From: Candidatus Glassbacteria bacterium
GTDB lineage: Bacteria; Gemmatimonadota; Glassbacteria; GWA2-58-10
Reading direction: 5' to 3'
Assembly (NCBI GenBank): GCA_019456185.1
Contig: VRUH01000006.1
Location: forward strand, 26,113 to 90,112
Length of the DNA: 64,000 bases
Part shown: piece by piece, positions 19,362 to 26,595 of the stretch
How positions within the stretch are numbered: the first letter of the stretch is position 1
Layout of the letters: each line of letters starts with the position of its first letter
Notes under the pieces: model-generated
What the model was told of the DNA's origin: nothing
The model's database searches: none
What the model saw: only the letters and a program-made list of their open reading frames with translations
Position numbers and translations under genes: made by a program

Positions 19362-19459
19362 TGGCGGGAGCGCGTGAGAATCGAACTCACCGCGGACAGT
19401 ATTAGTGCCCGCCACCGGATTTGAAGTCCGGGAGGCACACCAGTTACCCATCCGCCCCC
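19362..19459 (-). tRNA. selC: tRNA-Sec (anticodon UCA)
   Basis: 98 nt. CCGGA-CUUCAAA-UCCGG anticodon arm, long variable arm GCGGGCA/UGUCCGC, T-arm GUGAG-UUCGAUU-CUCAC, G73 discriminator, encoded CCA; directly downstream of selD. Confidence 0.95.
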
Positions 19460-19491
19460 GCATATCCATCTTCGCTCGCCGGCTGGAAGTC

Positions 19492-20550
19492 TTATTTGAC
19501 CACGGCGATTCTCCCGGGATTCTCAGCGCTGACCCGGCCGATTACGGCAGCCTCGCGGTCTCCTTCCCGGTGCAGGGCCGCCAGCAACTCCTCGGCGGTC
19601 TCGGGCGCGATAGAGATCAGCAGGCCGCCGGAGGTCTGGGCGTCGAAAAAGATCATCCGCTCGTGCTCGCTCACATCCGGGCTGAAACTGACCACGCTCT
19701 CGAGAAATTCCTTGTTTTTGGACGTCCCGCCGGAGATAAACCCCGACTGCATGGTCCGGGCCAGCGCTTCCGGCAGATACGGTATCGCCCCGGCGTCCAG
19801 AGTCAGCCCCACTCCGCTGCCCCTGGCGACCTCGTGGGCGTGGCCCAGCAGGCCGAACCCGCTAACATCCGTGGCCGCGTGGGCCCCGAACGACACCATC
19901 AGCTCCGAGGCCGTCCTGTTCAAGCGGACCATAATCGAGGTGATCCGCCCGATCTCTTCATCGGTGAGCTTGCCGGCTTTCAGCGCCGTGGTCATGATTC
20001 CCATGCCGAGCGGCTTGGTCAGGATCAGCGTGTCGCCGGGACGGGCGGTGGAGTTGCGGACAAATTTCTGCGGGTGGACCGTGCCGGTAAGCGCCAGGCC
20101 GAACTTCAGCTCCTCGTCCTTGATCGTGTGCCCGCCCACGATCGGGCAGCCGGCCTCGGCGGCTTTATCAGTGGCACCGCGGATTATCTCGGCGATTGTT
20201 TCCAGATCGACTTTCTTTTCCGAGAAGCCGACGATATTCAGCGCGGTAACAGGCTTGCCGCCCATGGCGTAGATGTCGCTGAGCGAATTGGCGGCCGCGA
20301 TCTGGCCGTACTGGTAGGGATCATCGACCAGCGGCGTGATCACGTCCACCGTATTGACCAGGGCCAGCTCATCGCTCAGACGATACACTCCGCCGTCATC
20401 CGCGGTGCTGGTATCGACCAGCAGGTTCGGATCCGAGACAGGCGGCAGCATTTGCATCAGCTTGCTTAACTCCGTTAAGCTCAGCTTGGCCAGTCAACCG
20501 GCGCTGGCGACCAGCTCTGTCAGCCGCTTTCTTTTGTTCTTGTGGAACAT
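19492..20550 (-). CDS. selD: Selenide, water dikinase (selenophosphate synthetase), Sec-containing (U19)
   Basis: Frame extends through TGA 20494-20496 to ATG 20550 (GGAG RBS): MFHKNKRKRLTELVASAG-U-LAK. Also DDGGVY, NSLSDIYAMGG, GGHT, ATDVSGFGL and DAQTSGGLL. Confidence 0.95.
20458..20493 (-). promoter_or_regulatory. SECIS-like hairpin of selD
   Basis: AGCU-GA-GCUUAAC-GGA-GUUAAGC-A-AGCU: perfect 7-bp upper stem, G-initiated loop 21 nt after the UGA. Confidence 0.85.
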
Positions 20551-20616
20551 CCGGTTTCTCCCCGATTGCTTCATTCGAATCGCCACAACCGGTTAAAGTG
20601 ACAATGGCGGCAACCG

Positions 20617-22530
20617 TTACGTTTCTCTCAGCCGCCTGATATTTCCGCTGCGTTCGGTCAGACCGCGCTGGTCGAAATGAATCAGCAGCGGTGTTGCGTA
20701 TTTACGCGAGCAGCCGATCTTCTCGCGGAATTCCGACACCCTAATCTCACCATTTTGCCGTAATAATTCAACCAGAACCTTTTCCGCCTTTTCCACGGCG
20801 CTGCGGTGGAAAATCACCCGCTTGTCCGCTTCCGGCATGATTTCAACCAGCCGGCCCATCTCGATCAGTCCCCGGACGATATCCGCTGCTCTCTGCTCGC
20901 CAAGCTCCTGAAACCGTCCGGCCACATCCCTCAGCGACGGGGTCGTGAAACCGGCCCGGCTGTAGAGATCCTCGATTCCGGCCGCAGGCTCCCTGTCCCG
21001 CACGCTGAATTCGACAGCGTGGCCCTCCAGCGCGATCGCCTCGCCCCGCAGCACAGCCTGACCGCTGGCCGTCAACATCCGCAGGACAACCTCCCAGGCC
21101 GCGGAATCGGCATTTTCCAGCAATTTACTTTTCAGCTCCGACTGCTTGATTCCGTTCAGATACGGGTTTTGTTCATGGAAACTTTCCAGATATTCAACCG
21201 CCCTGCGGCATACTTTTTCCAACTCCCCGGTCAGCATTACCGCTTTGACGGTTTTCCGCCCGAGTCCTGTCAGAACTCCCTCGCCCAGCAGCTGTTCCAC
21301 GGTTTCGCGCACGCGGTTTTCCGGCAGAGCCAGTGCCCGGCTCAACTGTCCGGTTGTTTTCGGCGCCAGGGGCGTCGAGGCCAGGTGGTGCAGAATCAGC
21401 CGGTCGGCTCCGGCCTGCTCCAGCTCCTCGAGCTGCTGGATATCCCGCGCCCCCAGATATTTCAGTTTCTCGGGGTGCACCTCCAGGATCGTCCCGCCGC
21501 CGATCGTGACCGGAGGCGAGTAACTGCGGATGATAAACCTGTCGCCGGTATCGGCAGCCACCGGTTCCTCAAGCCTGAACTGCACCACAGTCGCCTCCCC
21601 CGGCGCAACCGCTTTCCCAACCAGCGGCACAACCCTGGCCAGCAGTTCCCGGCAGCCGAGGTGAAGCCTGATTCTGGTCCTGTTCTTCAGTGGCTGAGCG
21701 CTTTCGAGCAGGTACAGCCTGGCGTTGACCATACAGGTGGGCGAAAAATAACCGGGGCTGGCCAGCATGTCGCCGCGCTCGACCTCATCCCGCTCGACAC
21801 CTGTCAGGTTGATCGCCGCACGCTGACCCACGCCGCTCTCGGCTACCTCCTCATTATGCACCTGAATTTTTCGCGCCCTGACCTCTCTGCCCCGCGGCAG
21901 CAGCTCCAGCCTGTCGCCGGCGCGCAGGCTGCCGGCCAGGACAGTGCCGGTGACAACATTGCCGATCCCCTTGAGGACAAACGATCTGTCGATCCAGTAA
22001 CGGAAGATACCCTTGTCATCCCTGGCCGGGGCTTCGCGAATCTCCTGCTCCAGCACCGCCCGGAACTCCGCAATCCCCTCCCCTGTCCGGCTGGAGAGGC
22101 ACACAACCGGCGCATCCTTGAGGAGCGTACCGGCCACGAACGCTGAGACTTCCTCTTTGACCAGCTCCAGCCAGTCCCGGTCGACGAGGTCGATCTTGGT
22201 CAGCGCAATAATCCCGCGACGGACATCCAGCAGGCGCAGGATGTCGAAATGCTCCCGGGTCTGGGACATGATCCCGTCATCGGCGGCGATTACCAGGATC
22301 ACCGAATCGATAGTGGTAATGCCGGCCAGCATGTTTTTGATAAACTTCTCGTGCCCCGGCACATCGATTATGCTCACGTCGGGTCCGTAGAACACGTAAC
22401 CCAGATCGATAGTCATGCCGCGCAGCTTTTCCTCCGGCAGCCTGTCCGCGTCGATATCAGTCAGGGCTTTGAGCAGCATGGTCTTGCCGTGGTCGATATG
22501 GCCGGCGGTGCCGATAATCGTGTGTTTCAT
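20617..22530 (-). CDS. selB: Selenocysteine-specific elongation factor
   Basis: [19 protein letters not shown] and [12 protein letters not shown] motifs; C-terminal winged-helix [11 protein letters not shown]; 637 aa. Confidence 0.97.
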
Positions 22531-24020
22531 CCGGGTGAATTCCTGCCTGGCCGGGCTGGGTGGTTGCCGTCAGCCGATTTCACGGGCTTGCTCCGGCAGT
22601 TTTTTAAGGCTCCGCCAACAAGCCCGGCGAGCGTATCCGTCTCGCGGGGATGGACCGTGCGCAGGTCCAGCAGGTAACGGTCCTCGGCAATCCGGCCGAA
22701 TACGGGCGGATCGCCCAGCCGCAGACGGCGCGCAAGCTCGTCGGCGGAAACCCGCTCACCGCCGATAGCCACCAGACGGGTCGGGATTCCGCAGGCCGGC
22801 ATCGCACCGCTGCCCATCTGCGATTCACCGTCGATTATCTCAAGCTTGATACTATCGCCTGCTTCCGGGCGCACAGCTTCGATAAACTTCTTTGCCCGTT
22901 GTTCCAGTTCCTCCACACCGGCGGCTGCCATCCGCAGGACGGGCAACTGATCGAACAGCACCTTCTCATCCAGGAAAAGTTTCAGGGTGGCCTCCAGCGC
23001 CGCGTAGACCATTTTATCGCAGCGCAGGGCGCGGCTGAGAGGGTTGTTTTTCAGCATGTCCACGTATTTTTTCCGGCCCACCGCGATACCGCACTGAGGA
23101 CCACCGAGCAGCTTGTCTCCGCTGAAAGTGACCACGTCCGCGCCGTCGCGGATACTCTGAACGACCACGGGTTCCGGCGGCAAACCGTAGCCCGTGAAAT
23201 CCAGCAGGCAGCCGCTGCCGATATCATGGACAAGCGGCAGAGTGCGGGAGTCGCAGAGCGGTTTCAATTCCGCAAGGGGGACCTCGCTGGTAAAACCCCT
23301 GATCCGGTAGTTACTGGGGTGGACTGTCTGCACCAGCGCCGTACGCTCGGCGATCGCTTTTTCATAGTCGGCGAGGTGGGTCCTGTTGGTGGTGCCGACC
23401 TCGATCATTTCCGCGCCGCTGAGGCGCATCACGTCCGGCATCCTGAACGATCCGCCGATCTCCACCAACTGGCCCCTGGAAACCAGCACCTCCCGCTGGT
23501 CGGCCAGCGTATTGAGCACCAGCAGGACCGCGGCGGCATTATTGTTGACCACGATCGCAGCCTCGGCGCCGGTCAGCAGGCGGAGCAGTTCCTCGACATG
23601 GGCATGACGGCTGCCGCGCCTGCCCGAGGCCACATCGATCTCCAGCGTGCAGTAATTCTCCACCGCCCGGGCCAGTGCATCCCTGGCCGTATCGGCCAAC
23701 GGCGCCCTGCCCAGACCGGTATGCAGGATAATCCCGGTGGCATTGATCGCCGGGCCGAGACCGGGACGGGATTTAGCGCGAACCCGCCGGGCAACCTCGC
23801 ACGCGACAGAGCCGGCGGACAGATCGATAGCAGCCGGCTGATCCGCAGGAGCCGCCAGGACCGTGTCGCGCAATTCCTGCAGGACTGCCTTGATTGTCTC
23901 TTTGACCAGCCGCTTGGGAAATTGCTCGCCGAGAAGCTGAATCACCGGGTTGGCGAGCATTCTCGTGGTGCTGACAATATCTTTCAGCATCAGCTTTCCG
24001 GCCGCTGAATCGTGTTCCAT
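22527..24020 (-). CDS. selA: L-seryl-tRNA(Sec) selenium transferase
   Basis: [49 protein letters not shown] (PLP Lys). Stop overlaps the selB ATG (ATGA). Start at 24020 (or 23990) is inferred. Confidence 0.96.
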
Positions 24021-24050
24021 CCCCGCATTTCCTTTCCAGAGAGCCGCCAC

Positions 24051-24080
24051 AAAAAAAGGCCGCCGGAACCGGCAGCCTTT
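24051..24080 (-). terminator. Intrinsic terminator between the TlpA-like selenoprotein gene and selA
   Basis: Minus strand AAAGGCUGCCG-GUUC-CGGCGGCC-U7, ending 30 nt before the selA ATG. Confidence 0.75.
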
Positions 24081-24104: not shown

Positions 24105-25514
24105 CTACTGCGAGCTGTTGATTTCGATCCTGACCGGGATGTCCTGCCGGCGGTACAGGCAGGTGCCGTTGAGATCCTCGCAGACGTAATACAGTGAATA
24201 CGCCGGAACGACAACCGTGCCCCCGGCGTTTTCCGGGCATTTGATTTCGAATTCGAGCCTGCGGGTCTCCTGGCTGACCGGTTCCGGAGGTATGGGCACT
24301 GTCAGGTGACGGTTATCGACCTGCCACCCGTCCGGCGTGTCAATCCAGAAAACCAGGTCCTCCATCTCGTTGTTCCAGTGCGCCTTCTGTGACAGGTCCG
24401 GCCGGAGCACGACATGCACGCGGCCTGTTTCTCCCGGCGCCAGCGTTCCCGGCACGACAGTCACCTCGGCCCTGATCAGCCTCCGCTCATCGCGGAATAT
24501 CCGCCCATCGGGGTCCGGACTCCGCAGCTCGGTCCCGCCGGCCTCGAACGACTCGGACGGGTAGGCGAACTCAGCGCCTCCGGGTTCCACCCGCAGGACC
24601 GAGGGCGTCTCGCCCCTGGCTTCGATCTCCCGCCTGGCCTGGTTGACCCAGTCGTAAAACGAATAGGGCTTATCCAGCCTGGGGCCGTACTGCTGGATCC
24701 GACGTCGCCAGATATACTGGTTCGGGTCGAGCTCCAGCGCCCTGCCCCAGTGGGAGATTGCAGCTTCGAAATCACCCTCCCGGCGATAATCCGAATCGTA
24801 GCGCGCGCGGTAAGCGGCGCCCAGCCGGAAGTGGGTCGGGCCGTGGTCCGGTTCCAGCTCAACCGCCTCGCGGTAGGCCTCGACAGCCCTGTCCAGCGCT
24901 TCATCCCCGCCCCAGAGGACCAGGGAGGCGGCGTAATTCCGCTGGTTGTCGGCGCTCCGGCCCGCATGCTCCTGAAGCCGGGCGAGATCGGGAGCTTCGG
25001 CCCGGACCGGCACCGGCCGTGTCGAGCCGACATAGTCTGTTTCCAGAAATCGGCTGTACTCTTCGTCGCTGGGACGAAGCGCGCGTACGATACCCTGTTC
25101 ATCGATCAGGGCCGTAATCGGCACCGCCAGCACTTCGAGCAGGTTTTGCCGGTCGACCAGGATCGGCCAGTCCATCTGCTGCCACTGCATGAACAGGCGG
25201 GCCCTGTGGGGATGCTGTTCCTGGATGATCCCCACCATCTTGACGCGGCCCGCTGCCCTGTCTTCCTCGGTTTTTTTGTGCCACCCGGGCACGTGCTTGC
25301 GGCAGCCCGCTCACCAGGATGCGAAGATATGCAGCACGAGTTTCTGGCCGCGGTAAGCCGCCACCGAGAGCGGCCGGCCGTCATCGAGCGACGGGAACGG
25401 CAGGTCGGGGAACGGCTCGCCGACAGCGATCCGGGGAGCACCCGCGACAAACGACGTCATCCCCAAAAGCAGTGTCGAGAGCAGGACCACCGCGATCCTG
25501 AGAACATCTGTCAT
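24105..25514 (-). CDS. Selenoprotein: exported TlpA/redoxin domain with a UxxC motif, TPR region and DsbD-alpha-like C-terminal domain (469 aa, Sec68)
   Basis: Track ORFs 25311..25583 and 24105..25292 are in frame across TGA 25311-25313, giving HIFASW-U-AG-C-RKH. GGAGG before ATG 25514; TPR-like AVEAYREAVELEPDHGPTHFRLG; C-terminal YYVCEDLNGTCLY. Confidence 0.9.
25278..25310 (-). promoter_or_regulatory. SECIS-like hairpin of the TlpA-like selenoprotein
   Basis: GUGCC-CGGGU-GGCAC; the loop starts 24 nt after the UGA with G at position 2. Confidence 0.65.
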
Positions 25515-25564
25515 ATCGGCCTCCACAGCCATGTAATACCACTCCGTGATGTCTGAGTTGCATT

Positions 25565-25593
25565 TATATAATAAATACCCCACTAGATTTCAA
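25565..25593 (-). promoter_or_regulatory. Candidate sigma70 promoter for the sel cluster
   Basis: Minus strand TTGAAA-N17-TATATA in an AT-rich patch about 50 nt upstream of ATG 25514; the -10 match is weak. Confidence 0.35.
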
Positions 25594-25614: not shown

Positions 25615-26595
25615 TTACCTGCCGAGAGCATCGACAACGGCCAGCCATCTGCCGGGGCCGACCTGCCAGGCGTCGACATGGTGCATCGCTTCGGCGTTCC
25701 AACCGCTGGAGGAAGCCTGGACCAGCGGAGTCTCAATCATCGTCTCCGCATAGTCGGTCGTGCTGAGAGTGGTGATCTCGAAAGCCAGCGCCCGGTTGCC
25801 ATAGGTGGGATAACAGTCCTGGCCGATGCGGTAGAGCCTGCCATCGATTTCCAGCGGCCGGCCGGCCGGGCGGGCGGTGTCGAGGTTTTTCTCGATTACC
25901 GGACTTTGCGGGTGCTCGGTCCACGGCCCCATCAATTCGGCGGCATAAAACAGGCGCAGGGTCTCGTTGCCCAGCCGCGCGGCGAACATCCACCACATGT
26001 CGTCATGGCGGAAAATCGTCGGGCTGATGTAATGATCTCCGGAAATAATATCGCCCTGATATTGCCATTGATCGGGAAACGCGGTGGCCTTATAGAGCCG
26101 GACGGCAGTTTCCGTGTGGGCTTCGGGAGTCATGTAGTAGTCATCCTGCCATTTGAAAACGTAGGGGTAAGACAGGTCGTAAGGTTCATCGACAACTATC
26201 CGTCGGTGTTTCCAGTGCAGGCCGTCACTGCTTTCGGCCAGCCCGATCCCGCCCTCTTTCTTCTTGTCGCTCTTGGCCGTAAAAAACAGATAGTAGGCTG
26301 AATCTGTCGCGATCATGAACGGATGGGCGACAATGTTGACGTCGAGATCGGTGACATCCTCTCCTCGCAGTACCGGGTTGGTGACATTCGCCGGAGCGGA
26401 CAGCTCGAAGGGCGACGGCCCGGTCAGCACGCCGATCGTCCAGGCGTTTTCCGCTTCCCGGTCGCCCGAGGACTGCGCCTGCCCGTCCTGACCGGCGCCG
26501 CAGCCGATGGCTGTCAAGTTCCCCAGCAGCAGTCCCCAGGCCAGGGCCGCGACCAGCCGCCTGCCGGTGGTTAATCCTGAAAATGAGCGTTTCAT
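25615..26595 (-). CDS. Exported five-bladed beta-propeller glycoside-hydrolase-like protein (GH43/GH130/GINT1-N-like)
   Basis: AHPF, IGLAESSDGLHW, DLSYPYVF..DDYYM.PE and ARPAG motifs; signal or lipoprotein-like N-terminus. Confidence 0.65.
   Translation of the reverse strand: MKRSFSGLTTGRRLVAALAWGLLLGNLTAIGCGAGQDGQAQSSGDREAENAWTIGVLTGPSPFELSAPANVTNPVLRGEDVTDLDVNIVAHPFMIATDSAYYLFFTAKSDKKKEGGIGLAESSDGLHWKHRRIVVDEPYDLSYPYVFKWQDDYYMTPEAHTETAVRLYKATAFPDQWQYQGDIISGDHYISPTIFRHDDMWWMFAARLGNETLRLFYAAELMGPWTEHPQSPVIEKNLDTARPAGRPLEIDGRLYRIGQDCYPTYGNRALAFEITTLSTTDYAETMIETPLVQASSSGWNAEAMHHVDAWQVGPGRWLAVVDALGR

What the first reader, a model, noticed from the sequence alone, without database searches (positions are those of the whole stretch)
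24105..25514. Hidden selenoprotein 2: TlpA-like W-U-A-G-C plus TPR plus DsbD-alpha-like domain upstream of selA
Split by the track into 90-aa and 395-aa ORFs. In-frame read-through gives HIFASW-U-AGC, the canonical FxASWCxxC TlpA motif with Sec. A TPR-like block between the two redox domains suggests substrate or partner recognition, i.e. a dedicated client protein rather than general thiol housekeeping.
Basis: partly seen in the sequence, partly recalled or inferred. Interest (0 to 1): 0.8.

Follow-up and report, generated by a model that had tools for sequence, protein, structure and literature searches.

The report
Split gene is one exported selenoprotein
The two adjacent reading frames are one gene for an exported, thioredoxin-like redox enzyme whose active-site residue is selenocysteine. 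It belongs to a large family in at least four bacterial phyla that databases cut in two and label 'TPR repeat' or 'hypothetical' protein.

Summary
On the minus strand, ATG 25514 to stop 24105 is one 469-codon frame with a single in-frame TGA (25313..25311), reading HIFASW-U-AGC.

The same TGA, in the same frame with conserved protein on both sides, is present in all 103 related loci examined. These come from Acidobacteriota, Verrucomicrobiota, Planctomycetota and Chloroflexota.

A hairpin 19 nt after the UGA meets every criterion of the published bacterial SECIS model. It is held constant even at synonymous codon positions. selA, selB, a Sec-type selD and tRNA-Sec lie next to the gene.

The protein has four parts:
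- a signal peptide;
- a TlpA/ResA-like thioredoxin fold, with U at the first Cys of WCxxC;
- 2-3 TPR repeats;
- an Ig-like beta-sandwich with an invariant C-x(5-6)-C pair.

The 'DsbD-alpha-like' label is not supported as homology; only the fold class and the Cys pair agree. Adjacency to selA is specific to one clade, and a terminator-like hairpin separates the two genes. No conserved partner gene exists.

No CxxC orthologue was found. The rare non-Sec relatives have degenerate motifs.

The best NCBIfam match is a related selenoprotein family (NF041054), far below its cut-off. I rate this a new variant of a known kind, of moderate interest.

The parts
24105..25514 (-). Complete selenoprotein CDS: 469 codons, with Sec at codon 68 and TAG stop at 24107..24105
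   Evidence: Single frame with one internal TGA. Pfam Redoxin and TPR matches on the fused product. Orthologues have the same structure.
25520..25524 (-). Shine-Dalgarno-like GGAGG, 5 nt before ATG 25514
   Evidence: Read directly from the sequence. Inference only.
25440..25514 (-). Signal-peptide-like N-terminus (MTDVLRIAVVLLSTLLLGMTSFVAG|AP), residues 1-25
   Evidence: Hydrophobic N-termini followed by the conserved GxxFP motif in all orthologues. No signal-peptide predictor was available, so export is an inference.
25074..25424 (-). TlpA/ResA-like thioredoxin-fold domain (residues 31-147) with active site W-U68-A-G-C71
   Evidence: Pfam Redoxin and AhpC-TSA. Partial NCBIfam matches to StoA, TlpA and ResA. 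PDB sequence matches to Etrx, StoA, TlpA, CcmG and ResA, with U aligned to the first Cys of WCxxC.
25311..25313 (-). UGA selenocysteine codon (residue 68)
   Evidence: TGA in all 103 related loci examined.
25277..25293 (-). SECIS hairpin. The stem is GUGCC/GGCAC (25292..25288 with 25282..25278) and the loop is CGGGU (25287..25283). It lies within codons H-V-P-G-W-H, 23 nt separate the UGA from the loop, and a sixth flanking pair forms in most orthologues but is mismatched in the window.
   Evidence: Folds in the window and in orthologues. 97% of cells are paired and two pairs change on both sides. Third-position entropy is 0.08 bits at the stem Val codon and 0.45 bits at the loop Pro codon, against 1.36-1.97 bits at 34 other conserved four-fold codons downstream of the hairpin. 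All four criteria of the bacterial SECIS model in PMC13188914 are met.
24693..24953 (-). TPR block (about residues 188-274; 2-3 repeats)
   Evidence: Pfam TPR_11, TPR_1 and TPR_2 above cut-off. The family profile matches consensus TPR proteins in the PDB. Helix pairs appear in the model.
24645..24725 (-). Most conserved segment of the family, DPNQYIWRRRIQQYGPRLDKPYSFYDWV (residues 264-290), between the TPR block and the beta-sandwich
   Evidence: A run of invariant or nearly invariant columns in A1. No Pfam or NCBIfam model covers it. Role unknown.
24108..24527 (-). C-terminal Ig-like beta-sandwich domain (residues 330-469)
   Evidence: AlphaFold model of the domain: pLDDT 93.5, nine strands. 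Foldseek matches to complement MG, TRAP, PapD-like and NEW3-like sandwiches, TM about 0.5. Pfam NPCBM_assoc in 10 of 24 members and DsbD_N in 3 of 24.
24159..24182 (-). Invariant Cys pair C445...C452 (YYVC-EDLNGT-C-LYRR) spanning the last beta-hairpin
   Evidence: Both Cys are invariant in A1 and A2 across four phyla. They sit at the end and the start of adjacent strands in the models. They are lost only in the rare relatives whose UxxC is also degenerate.
24055..24080 (-). Intrinsic-terminator-like hairpin plus T-run between this gene's stop and selA
   Evidence: Terminator scan: 11 pairs, 7 of them G-C, loop of 4, then TTTTTTTG.
22527..24050 (-). selA (context: Sec machinery); the true start is probably an ATG downstream of the terminator
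   Evidence: Pfam SelA, E 2e-144.
20617..22530 (-). selB (context)
   Evidence: Pfam GTP_EFTU plus the SelB winged-helix and beta-barrel domains.
19362..19459 (-). tRNA-Sec, selC (context)
   Evidence: Rfam RF01852, 70.4 bits. ARAGORN tRNA-SeC with anticodon tca.

Best explanation
Positions 25514..24105 on the minus strand are one gene for a 469-residue exported selenoprotein.

Shown:
- The UGA at codon 68 is conserved in every orthologue examined.
- It is followed 19 nt later by a small hairpin, GUGCC-[C-G-G/U-G-U]-GGCAC, that fits the bacterial SECIS model. The hairpin is constrained at the RNA level.
- The genome carries selA, selB, selD and tRNA-Sec next door.
- The product has a signal-peptide-like N-terminus, a TlpA/ResA/Etrx-type thioredoxin fold in which Sec replaces the nucleophilic first Cys of WCxxC (W-U68-A-G-C71), 2-3 TPR repeats, a very conserved linker, and an Ig-like beta-sandwich with an invariant C445-x6-C452 pair.

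Inferred:
- After export it acts like other extracytoplasmic TlpA-type enzymes, as a thiol/selenol-disulfide reductase. The selenolate of U68 attacks an oxidised client, C71 resolves the intermediate to a selenenylsulfide, and the enzyme is re-reduced through a CcdA/DsbD-type membrane route.
- The TPR and linker form a rigid scaffold that holds the beta-sandwich against the Trx domain.
- More tentatively (about 0.35-0.4), the beta-sandwich Cys pair is a second redox centre that exchanges electrons with UxxC. This would parallel DsbD-gamma handing electrons to DsbD-alpha.

The client is unknown.
For: One frame with a single TGA, and the Redoxin/AhpC-TSA match spans it.

TGA is at the same site in every related locus: 18/18, 5/5 and 80/80. 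Among the best 120 and 150 database relatives, almost all begin just after the UGA.

SECIS evidence:
- 97% of hairpin cells are paired. One G-C to A-U double change costs a His-to-Tyr substitution (L006), and one U-A to U-G change occurs in L017.
- The Val codon in the stem is GTG in 94 of 95 genes (0.08 bits). The Pro codon at the first loop nucleotide is CCC in 88 of 95 (0.45 bits). Thirty-four other conserved four-fold codons downstream of the hairpin show 1.36-1.97 bits.
- The loop, stem, spacing and energy criteria of the bacterial SECIS model are all met.

Sec machinery is adjacent.

U aligns with the first Cys of WCxxC in Etrx, StoA and TlpA.

The models are confident: pLDDT 87.7 and pTM 0.88 for the 401 residues after U, and 93.5 for the C-terminal domain.

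The Cys pair is invariant across phyla. It is degenerate only in the four clusters that have also lost Sec or the resolving Cys.
Against: - No experiment: Sec insertion, export and redox activity are all inferred.
- Rfam has no matching SECIS family.
- The window's own hairpin has only 5 pairs (-7.6 kcal/mol) and is no more stable than shuffled sequence.
- Most hairpin nucleotides also encode conserved residues, so covariation is thin: 2 pairs with double changes.
- No conserved neighbour points to a client or an electron donor.
- The relay idea rests on analogy and on co-loss in only 3-4 divergent lineages. The Cys pair could be a structural disulfide.
- I could not model the full-length protein because the tool refuses the internal stop. 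I also had no access to model coordinates, so the distance between the two centres is unknown.
Confidence: 0.85

Rival explanations
1. It is a single selenoprotein with only one redox centre. The UxxC site does all the chemistry. C445-C452 is a structural disulfide that stabilises an exported beta-sandwich, and the TPR and Ig domains only scaffold or bind a client or the envelope.
For: The nearest folds of the C-terminal domain are non-redox Ig-like sandwiches. There is no significant sequence link to DsbD-alpha. Exported proteins often carry structural disulfides (general knowledge).
Against: The Cys pair is as invariant as the active site across four phyla. It decays in exactly the few lineages whose UxxC is degenerate. 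Its position across a terminal beta-hairpin mirrors the DsbD-alpha Cys103/Cys109 arrangement (from memory; the motif YQGCADAGFCYPP is seen).
Confidence: 0.4
2. It is a single selenoprotein, but not a disulfide reductase. The Sec site could act as a peroxidase or sulfenate reductase (Prx-like), as a metal(loid) or selenium handler, or as an oxidase/isomerase.
For: The AhpC-TSA model scores as well as Redoxin. Sec is typical of peroxide-reducing enzymes (PMC13188914, section 8). The gene sits beside selA-selB-selD in one clade. Some loci have arsenic-type neighbours: radical SAM/DUF3641 with a methyltransferase in L021, and LMWPc with an ArsR-type HTH in L024.
Against: The motif is the Trx-type W-U-x-x-C, not the Prx T-x-x-C/U. 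The nearest characterised relatives (Etrx, StoA, TlpA, CcmG, ResA) are all extracytoplasmic reductases. None of the neighbour associations recurs.
Confidence: 0.15
3. There are two separate genes, or a pseudogene. The UGA would be a true stop, giving a 67-90 aa peptide and a 395-aa TPR protein started at the GTG of H-V-P-G-W-H. Alternatively the TGA would be a mutation or a sequencing error.
For: Gene callers and all public annotations split it this way.
Against: A stop here would cut the thioredoxin fold through its active site. All 103 relatives keep the TGA, the same frame and zero spacing. The stretch after the UGA is constrained at synonymous sites as an RNA hairpin. The Sec machinery is adjacent. 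A pseudogene would not be conserved across four phyla.
Confidence: 0.02

Closest known systems
Extracytoplasmic TlpA/ResA/StoA/CcmG/Etrx thiol-disulfide reductases (cd02966; Pfam Redoxin PF08534)
   Same: N-terminal export signal or anchor, a thioredoxin fold with a W-C-x-x-C-type site and a cis-Pro loop (VPIT). Sequence matches to 2yp6/4hqz (Etrx), 3erw (StoA), 1jfu (TlpA), 3kh7 (CcmG) and ResA.
   Different: The nucleophile is Sec, not Cys. About 320 extra residues (TPR, conserved linker, Ig-like domain with a Cys pair) are fused to the C-terminus. No cytochrome-maturation, Sco/Cox or Msr context was found.
NCBIfam NF041054, 'ResA-like WAxxUGC motif-containing protein' (the UGC-containing TlpA/Prx-like selenoprotein of Zhang & Gladyshev 2008, PMC2398784, listed in PMC13188914)
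   Same: It is the best NCBIfam hit. The match covers both the Trx domain and the TPR region (residues 35-275 against profile positions 84-318 of 354). It is also a Sec-containing, ResA-like protein.
   Different: The score is 77.7 bits against a cut-off of 300. The motif here is A-S-W-U-A-G-C (UxxC at the canonical position), not W-A-x-x-U-G-C. The NF041054 profile ends soon after the TPR region and has no counterpart of the RRRIQQYGPRLDKPY linker or the C-terminal beta-sandwich.
DsbD (periplasmic gamma Trx-like domain plus alpha Ig-like domain)
   Same: It pairs a Trx-fold redox domain with an Ig-like domain that carries two Cys on adjacent strands near its C-terminal end (YQGC-ADAGF-C-YPP in E. 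coli; YYVC-EDLNGT-C-LYRR here).
   Different: There is no membrane beta domain. The order is Trx first and Ig last, with a TPR spacer. No detectable sequence or nearest-neighbour structural similarity of the Ig domain to DsbD-alpha was found. The Cys spacing is 5-6 residues, against 5 in E. coli.
Generic UxxC Trx-fold selenoprotein classes in published catalogues ('Thiol-disulfide isomerase-like protein', 'Redoxin family protein', 'Prx-like 1/3'; PMC1088965, PMC2398784, PMC13188914 Table 1)
   Same: A UxxC motif in a cd02966/PF08534/PF00578-type domain. This family could have been counted under one of these headings in read-based surveys.
   Different: None of these papers mentions a TPR or an Ig-like domain. 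Those classes are reported with 'widespread' Cys homologues, whereas this family has almost none. I could not fetch the representative accessions (HEU0032618.1, MGB1650493.1) to test identity.
Trx-TPR 'chaperedoxins' such as E. coli CnoX/YbbN (from memory, not tested here)
   Same: A thioredoxin-fold domain is followed by TPR repeats. The rare non-Sec relatives carry an SxxC motif, like YbbN.
   Different: CnoX is cytoplasmic, has no Sec and has no Ig-like domain. No sequence comparison was made.

Membership tests
Bacterial selenoprotein (SelB/SECIS-decoded UGA) | In-frame UGA conserved among orthologues, with protein conservation on both sides | tested here: met
   All 103 related loci examined have it. 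The Redoxin HMM spans the UGA.
Bacterial selenoprotein (SelB/SECIS-decoded UGA) | [quoted passage not shown] 2) | tested here: met
   Loop C-G-[G/U]-G-U, stem of 5-7 bp, 23 nt spacing, -7.6 kcal/mol in the window and -8.1 to -9.0 in orthologues. Synonymous sites are frozen. No Rfam family matches.
Bacterial selenoprotein (SelB/SECIS-decoded UGA) | Sec machinery in the same genome (selA, selB, selC, selD) | tested here: met
   selA, selB, selD and tRNA-Sec lie at 24050..19362 on the same strand.
Bacterial selenoprotein (SelB/SECIS-decoded UGA) | Cys (or another residue) at the Sec position in homologues | tested here: met
   U aligns with the first Cys of WCxxC in solved TlpA-like proteins. Within the family, the position is Cys in P0259/P0271 and Ser in P0366/P0379.
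Bacterial selenoprotein (SelB/SECIS-decoded UGA) | Selenium physically present in the full-length product | not testable with these tools
   Needs 75Se labelling or mass spectrometry.
TlpA/ResA-like extracytoplasmic thiol-disulfide oxidoreductase (Redoxin PF08534 / cd02966) | Profile match above the curated cut-off, with the W-C-x-x-C site and a cis-Pro loop | tested here: met
   Redoxin 43.9 bits (cut-off 26.6) and AhpC-TSA 43.3 bits (cut-off 26). WUAGC aligns with WCGPC/WCPPC. V-P-x-T is invariant.
TlpA/ResA-like extracytoplasmic thiol-disulfide oxidoreductase (Redoxin PF08534 / cd02966) | Export or membrane anchoring, and re-reduction through CcdA/DsbD | not tested
   Signal-peptide-like N-termini are seen in all orthologues, but no predictor was run. 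No CcdA/DsbD gene turned up as a recurrent neighbour.
Equivalogs TlpA (NF047696), StoA (NF041202), ResA (NF002854), DsbE/CcmG (TIGR00385) | Whole-protein score at or above the curated cut-off | tested here: not met
   39 vs 230, 42.8 vs 210, 36.5 vs 170 and 15.5 vs 123 bits. It is a relative, not a member, of each.
NF041054 ResA-like WAxxUGC motif selenoprotein | Score >= 300 bits and the W-A-x-x-U-G-C motif | tested here: not met
   77.7 bits. The motif is A-S-W-U-A-G-C in all 104 genes, the window's included.
TPR repeat proteins | Matches to TPR profiles above cut-off and paired antiparallel helices | tested here: met
   TPR_11 39.2 bits, TPR_1 35.7 bits and TPR_2 30.8 bits, all above cut-off. 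Consensus TPR proteins are the top PDB sequence hits of the family profile. Helix pairs appear in the model.
DsbD N-terminal (alpha) domain, Pfam PF11412 | Profile match at or above the gathering score | tested here: not met
   No hit for the window protein. Three of 24 family members hit it, best E 0.014. hhalign against E. coli DsbD-alpha gives probability 0.5%.
DsbD N-terminal (alpha) domain, Pfam PF11412 | Ig-like sandwich with two redox Cys on adjacent strands | tested here: inconclusive
   The fold class and the Cys-pair placement agree. However, DsbD-alpha is absent from the 50 best PDB fold matches, and redox activity is untested.

The most novel reading that the evidence does not exclude
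This is an essentially obligate-Sec, exported, two-centre redox relay. A TlpA-like U-x-x-C domain would pass electrons to, or take them from, a Cys pair on a fused Ig-like domain across a rigid TPR scaffold. That would make it a soluble, convergent counterpart of DsbD gamma-to-alpha. Because no CxxC orthologue exists, it may be one of the proteins that keeps the Sec machinery in many Acidobacteriota, Verrucomicrobiota, Planctomycetota and Chloroflexota. In one acidobacterial clade the gene sits immediately upstream of the selA-selB-selD-selC cluster.
Probability: 0.25. Interest if true: 0.75.

Novelty: new variant of a known kind. Interest (0 to 1): 0.55.

Why it matters
There are three reasons.

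1. Annotation. Hundreds of sequence clusters are stored as N-terminally truncated 'TPR repeat' or 'hypothetical' proteins with the catalytic half cut off. These comprise 362 clusters at 50% identity below E 1e-30 and at least 575 metagenome contigs. No full-length entry appeared among the best hits, and no NCBIfam model reaches its cut-off. A dedicated model would fix all of them.

2. Selenium biology. Nearly all selenoprotein families have far more Cys homologues than Sec forms (PMC13188914). Here every one of about 100 orthologues examined uses Sec. The only non-Sec relatives found have crippled motifs. That makes the family a good system for asking what Sec can do that Cys cannot, in the oxidising extracytoplasmic space.

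3. Envelope redox biology. The fusion of a Trx fold, a TPR block and an Ig domain with a Cys pair suggests a self-contained electron relay. It occurs in abundant soil and sediment phyla whose periplasmic redox pathways are little studied.

The very small, highly conserved SECIS embedded in H-V-P-G-W-H is also a clean test case for SelB recognition outside the Proteobacteria and Firmicutes.

Tried and rejected
As a result only the 401 residues after Sec and the C-terminal domain were modelled, and the Trx active site and its distance to C445/C452 could not be examined.
- Rfam found no SECIS family at gathering thresholds over the whole window, nor at E <= 10 around the UGA. It found only tRNA-Sec and two chance hits.
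- Folding 77 nt after the UGA gave a structure no better than shuffles (z = -0.08). The signal is the small local hairpin, and comparison was needed to see it.
- Four tests of DsbD-alpha homology for the C-terminal domain all came back negative or marginal:
  - Pfam on the domain and on 24 members;
  - a PDB profile search, which returned only chance cupin hits;
  - hhalign against the DsbD_N-like tail of the window's other selenoprotein and against E. coli DsbD-alpha;
  - Foldseek on two models.
- A conserved partner was sought with tblastn of window neighbours against 19 loci, four database contexts, and clustering of 545 neighbour ORFs from about 104 loci. Nothing recurs in more than 5 loci. 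The two largest clusters were antisense shadow ORFs of the gene itself.
- A first attempt to cut the C-terminal domains by motif mis-cut three loci. These were fixed by hand for A2.
- Literature: no held paper combines bacterial selenoproteins with TPR. Haft & Tolstoy 2025 (PMC12013261) is not held. BSepDB and deep-Sep do not mention this architecture.
Full report
**1. The observation**

The feature lies on the minus strand. Translating 25583..24105 gives one open frame with a single internal stop...GQKLVLHIFASW*AGCRKHVPGWHKK.... The TGA occupies 25313..25311. Mechanical ORF calling splits the region into a 90-aa ORF (25583..25311) and a 395-aa ORF that starts at the GTG of 'HVPGWH' (25292..24105).

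The most plausible start is ATG 25514, with GGAGG 5 nt upstream. That gives MTDVLRIAVVLLSTLLLGMTSFVAG|AP..., a signal-peptide-like N-terminus, and a 469-codon gene with Sec at codon 68.

**2. Is the UGA decoded?**

Five independent lines say yes.

(a) With Cys substituted for the stop, the Pfam Redoxin and AhpC-TSA models match residues 31-147, above their curated cut-offs. The match runs straight across codon 68.

(b) Every relative examined has the TGA, all in frame with the motif [FW]-A-S-W-U-x-G-C-R and a conserved, signal-peptide-bearing N-terminal half:
- A genome scan returned 19 loci from Verrucomicrobiota, Planctomycetota, Anaerolineae/Chloroflexota and unclassified MAGs. All 18 that include the site have TGA there.
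- Five more loci fetched through database proteins do too.
- So do 80 of 80 metagenome loci.

In the protein databases the family appears almost only as truncated products. All 120 best hits of the fused query cover only about 75-85% of it. In an exhaustive HMMER search of 1.84 billion representatives, 362 clusters score below 1e-30. Nearly all of the best 150 begin at query residues 7-10, which is the GTG just after the UGA.

(c) A hairpin follows the UGA. Nineteen nt downstream lies GUGCC-[CGGGU]-GGCAC, encoded by Val-Pro-Gly-Trp-His.
- On 23 sequences, 97% of cells pair.
- One G-C to A-U double change (L006, GUACC/GGUAC) is bought with a His-to-Tyr substitution.
- L017 has a U-A to U-G change.

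These residues are conserved, so I tested the RNA constraint separately. Across 95 unique genes, I took four-fold-degenerate codons of residues that are at least 90% conserved. Thirty-four such sites downstream of the hairpin have third-position entropy of 1.36-1.97 bits. The stem Val codon has 0.08 bits (GTG in 94 genes; the one GTA is the compensated case). The Pro codon that supplies the first loop nucleotide has 0.45 bits. Protein selection cannot explain that.

The element meets all four criteria of the published bacterial SECIS model (PMC13188914, section 5):
- a 5-nt loop with G at position 2 followed by G or U;
- a stem of 5-7 bp;
- 23 nt between the UGA and the loop;
- an MFE of -7.6 kcal/mol in the window and -8.1 to -9.0 in orthologues.

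(d) The Sec machinery is adjacent on the same strand: selA (24050..22527), selB (22530..20617), selD and tRNA-Sec (19459..19362).

(e) TGA is otherwise the commonest ordinary stop in the window, ending 21 of 39 long ORFs. There is no general reassignment of the codon.

The 'two genes' and 'pseudogene' readings are effectively excluded.

**3. Anatomy of the protein**

- **Residues 1-25** form a signal-peptide-like segment. Equivalent hydrophobic N-termini occur in all orthologues. Export is inferred, because no predictor was available.
- **Residues 31-147** form a TlpA/ResA-type thioredoxin fold. The nearest solved relatives by sequence are the pneumococcal surface thioredoxins (2yp6, 4hqz), StoA (3erw), TlpA (1jfu), CcmG/DsbE (3kh7) and ResA. 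'faswCagc' aligns to 'waswCgpc', so Sec is the nucleophilic first residue of WCxxC and C71 is the resolving Cys. The scores are far below the cut-offs of the TlpA, StoA, ResA and DsbE equivalogs. It is a relative of each, not a member.
- **Residues about 188-274** are 2-3 TPR repeats.
- **Residues 264-290**, DPNQYIWRRRIQQYGPRLDKPYSFYDWV, are the most conserved stretch of the family. No model covers them.
- **Residues 330-469** form a nine-stranded Ig-like beta-sandwich (pLDDT 93.5). An invariant Cys pair, C445 and C452, sits on the two strands of the last hairpin.

The model of the 401 residues after Sec has pLDDT 87.7 and pTM 0.88. This suggests a fixed arrangement of the domains rather than beads on a string.

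**4. Is the C-terminal domain DsbD-alpha-like?**

Homology is not shown.
- Foldseek on the isolated domain returns complement C3/C4 MG domains, TRAP subunits, PapD-like and glycosidase accessory sandwiches at TM about 0.5. No DsbD-alpha structure is among the best 50 (the same holds for the larger model).
- Pfam NPCBM_assoc (NEW3) is hit by 10 of 24 members (best E 1e-4). DsbD_N is hit by only 3 of 24 (best E 0.014).
- hhalign against E. coli DsbD-alpha, and against the DsbD_N-like tail of the window's other selenoprotein, gives nothing.

What remains is a functional resemblance: an Ig-like domain with two Cys on adjacent strands near its end (YYVC-EDLNGT-C-LYRR here, YQGC-ADAGF-C-YPP in DsbD).

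One piece of evolutionary evidence links the two Cys to the active site. The only non-Sec relatives I could find are degenerate at both places.
- P0259 and P0271 (Planctomycetota) read FAAG-C-EG-S, with U changed to C and the resolving Cys changed to Ser. They have also lost the second C-terminal Cys.
- P0366 and P0379 read W-S-EA-C. P0366 has lost both C-terminal Cys.

This is suggestive, but it rests on three or four divergent lineages.

**5. Context**

In the window and its closest relative (75% identity; L020/L026, GCA_004196275.1) the gene order is: GINT1_N-like, this gene, selA, selB, selD.

Elsewhere the neighbourhood differs completely. Only L002 has selB beside it. Clustering 545 neighbour ORFs from about 104 loci finds no family in more than 5 loci.

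A terminator-like hairpin (24080..24055; 11 pairs followed by a T-run) lies between this gene's stop and selA. The selA adjacency is therefore a clade-specific arrangement, and no partner or client can be read from synteny.

**6. Mechanism**

Shown: the gene is one frame with a conserved UGA and SECIS, and its product has the domain set above.

Inferred from the established chemistry of TlpA-type proteins and of Sec (PMC13188914, section 8):
- After export, the selenolate of U68 attacks an oxidised client.
- C71 resolves the adduct to a selenenylsulfide.
- The enzyme is recycled by a CcdA/DsbD-type donor.

Tentative (about 0.35-0.4): C445/C452 form a second centre that exchanges electrons with UxxC, as the DsbD gamma and alpha domains do. 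The main rival (about 0.4) is that they form a structural disulfide.

The client is unknown.

**7. Comparison with what is known**

UxxC thioredoxin-fold selenoproteins are a well-known kind. Catalogues list 'Thiol-disulfide isomerase-like', 'Redoxin family', 'Prx-like' and 'UGC-containing TlpA family' entries.

The best NCBIfam match is NF041054, 'ResA-like WAxxUGC motif-containing protein'. It aligns over both the Trx and TPR regions, but at 77.7 bits against a cut-off of 300. Its motif register is different, and it has no counterpart of the linker or the beta-sandwich. The two are sister families, not the same family.

No paper in the library links a bacterial selenoprotein with TPR. No full-length, correctly annotated entry appeared among the best hits in a 5.8-billion-sequence collection that includes NCBI. 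It remains possible that read-based surveys counted this family under a generic heading, because I could not fetch their representative accessions.

One feature is unusual. [quoted passage not shown]

**8. Verdict**

This is a real, widespread, systematically mis-annotated selenoprotein. It is a new variant (a distinct three-domain, near-obligate-Sec family) of a known kind. Its interpretation is right on Sec, TlpA and TPR, overstated on DsbD-alpha and on the selA link, and untested on the client. Interest: 0.55.

Noticed in passing
window 20457..19492 (-), with in-frame TGA at about 20497..20495: selD is itself a selenoprotein. Upstream of the called 321-aa ORF the frame reads ...LTELVASAG-U-LAKLSL (the SelD GUxxK form). 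A 7-bp hairpin with a GGA loop starts about 16 nt after the UGA.
   Followed up: partly
It is a signal-peptide-bearing Prx/BCP-like domain with LFYRSADW-U-GYC, fused to a C-terminal domain that does hit Pfam DsbD_N (E 1.5e-4, just under the cut-off). That domain carries YQAC-DDKK-C-YIPD. The gene is called as a 271-aa truncated ORF. The same gene follows selD in L020 and occurs near the target gene in 4 loci.
   Followed up: partly
window 24080..24055 (-): A strong intrinsic-terminator-like hairpin lies between the selenoprotein's stop codon and selA. The listed GTG start of selA (24050) lies right after the T-run, so the true selA start is probably the ATG near 24020.
   Followed up: no
P0259, P0271, P0366, P0379 (database relatives): These are the only non-Sec relatives found, and they are degenerate. 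P0259 and P0271 have C-x-x-S; P0366 and P0379 have S-x-x-C (like YbbN/CnoX-type SxxC proteins). The C-terminal Cys pair is partly or wholly lost where that region is present (P0259, P0271, P0366). P0379 looks chimeric with a LysR-type substrate domain.
   Followed up: partly
L021/L022 16644..17179: In a relative's contig, two adjacent DUF3179 ORFs (121 aa and 137 aa) look like another selenoprotein split by UGA. DUF3179 is a listed selenoprotein family. The same contig has a radical-SAM/DUF3641 gene plus a methyltransferase pair (arsenic-type genes) 1.5-3.5 kb downstream of the target homologue.
   Followed up: no
window 24645..24725 (-), residues 264-290: DPNQYIWRRRIQQYGPRLDKPYSFYDWV is almost invariant across four phyla, more so than most of the Trx domain. 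It matches no known model, and part of it is modelled with low confidence (pLDDT about 57).
   Followed up: no
window 25615..26595 (-): The gene just upstream is a GINT1_N-like (glycosyl-hydrolase-43-like fold) exported protein (Pfam PF24793, E 6e-61). It holds the same position in the close relative L020 but not elsewhere.
   Followed up: no
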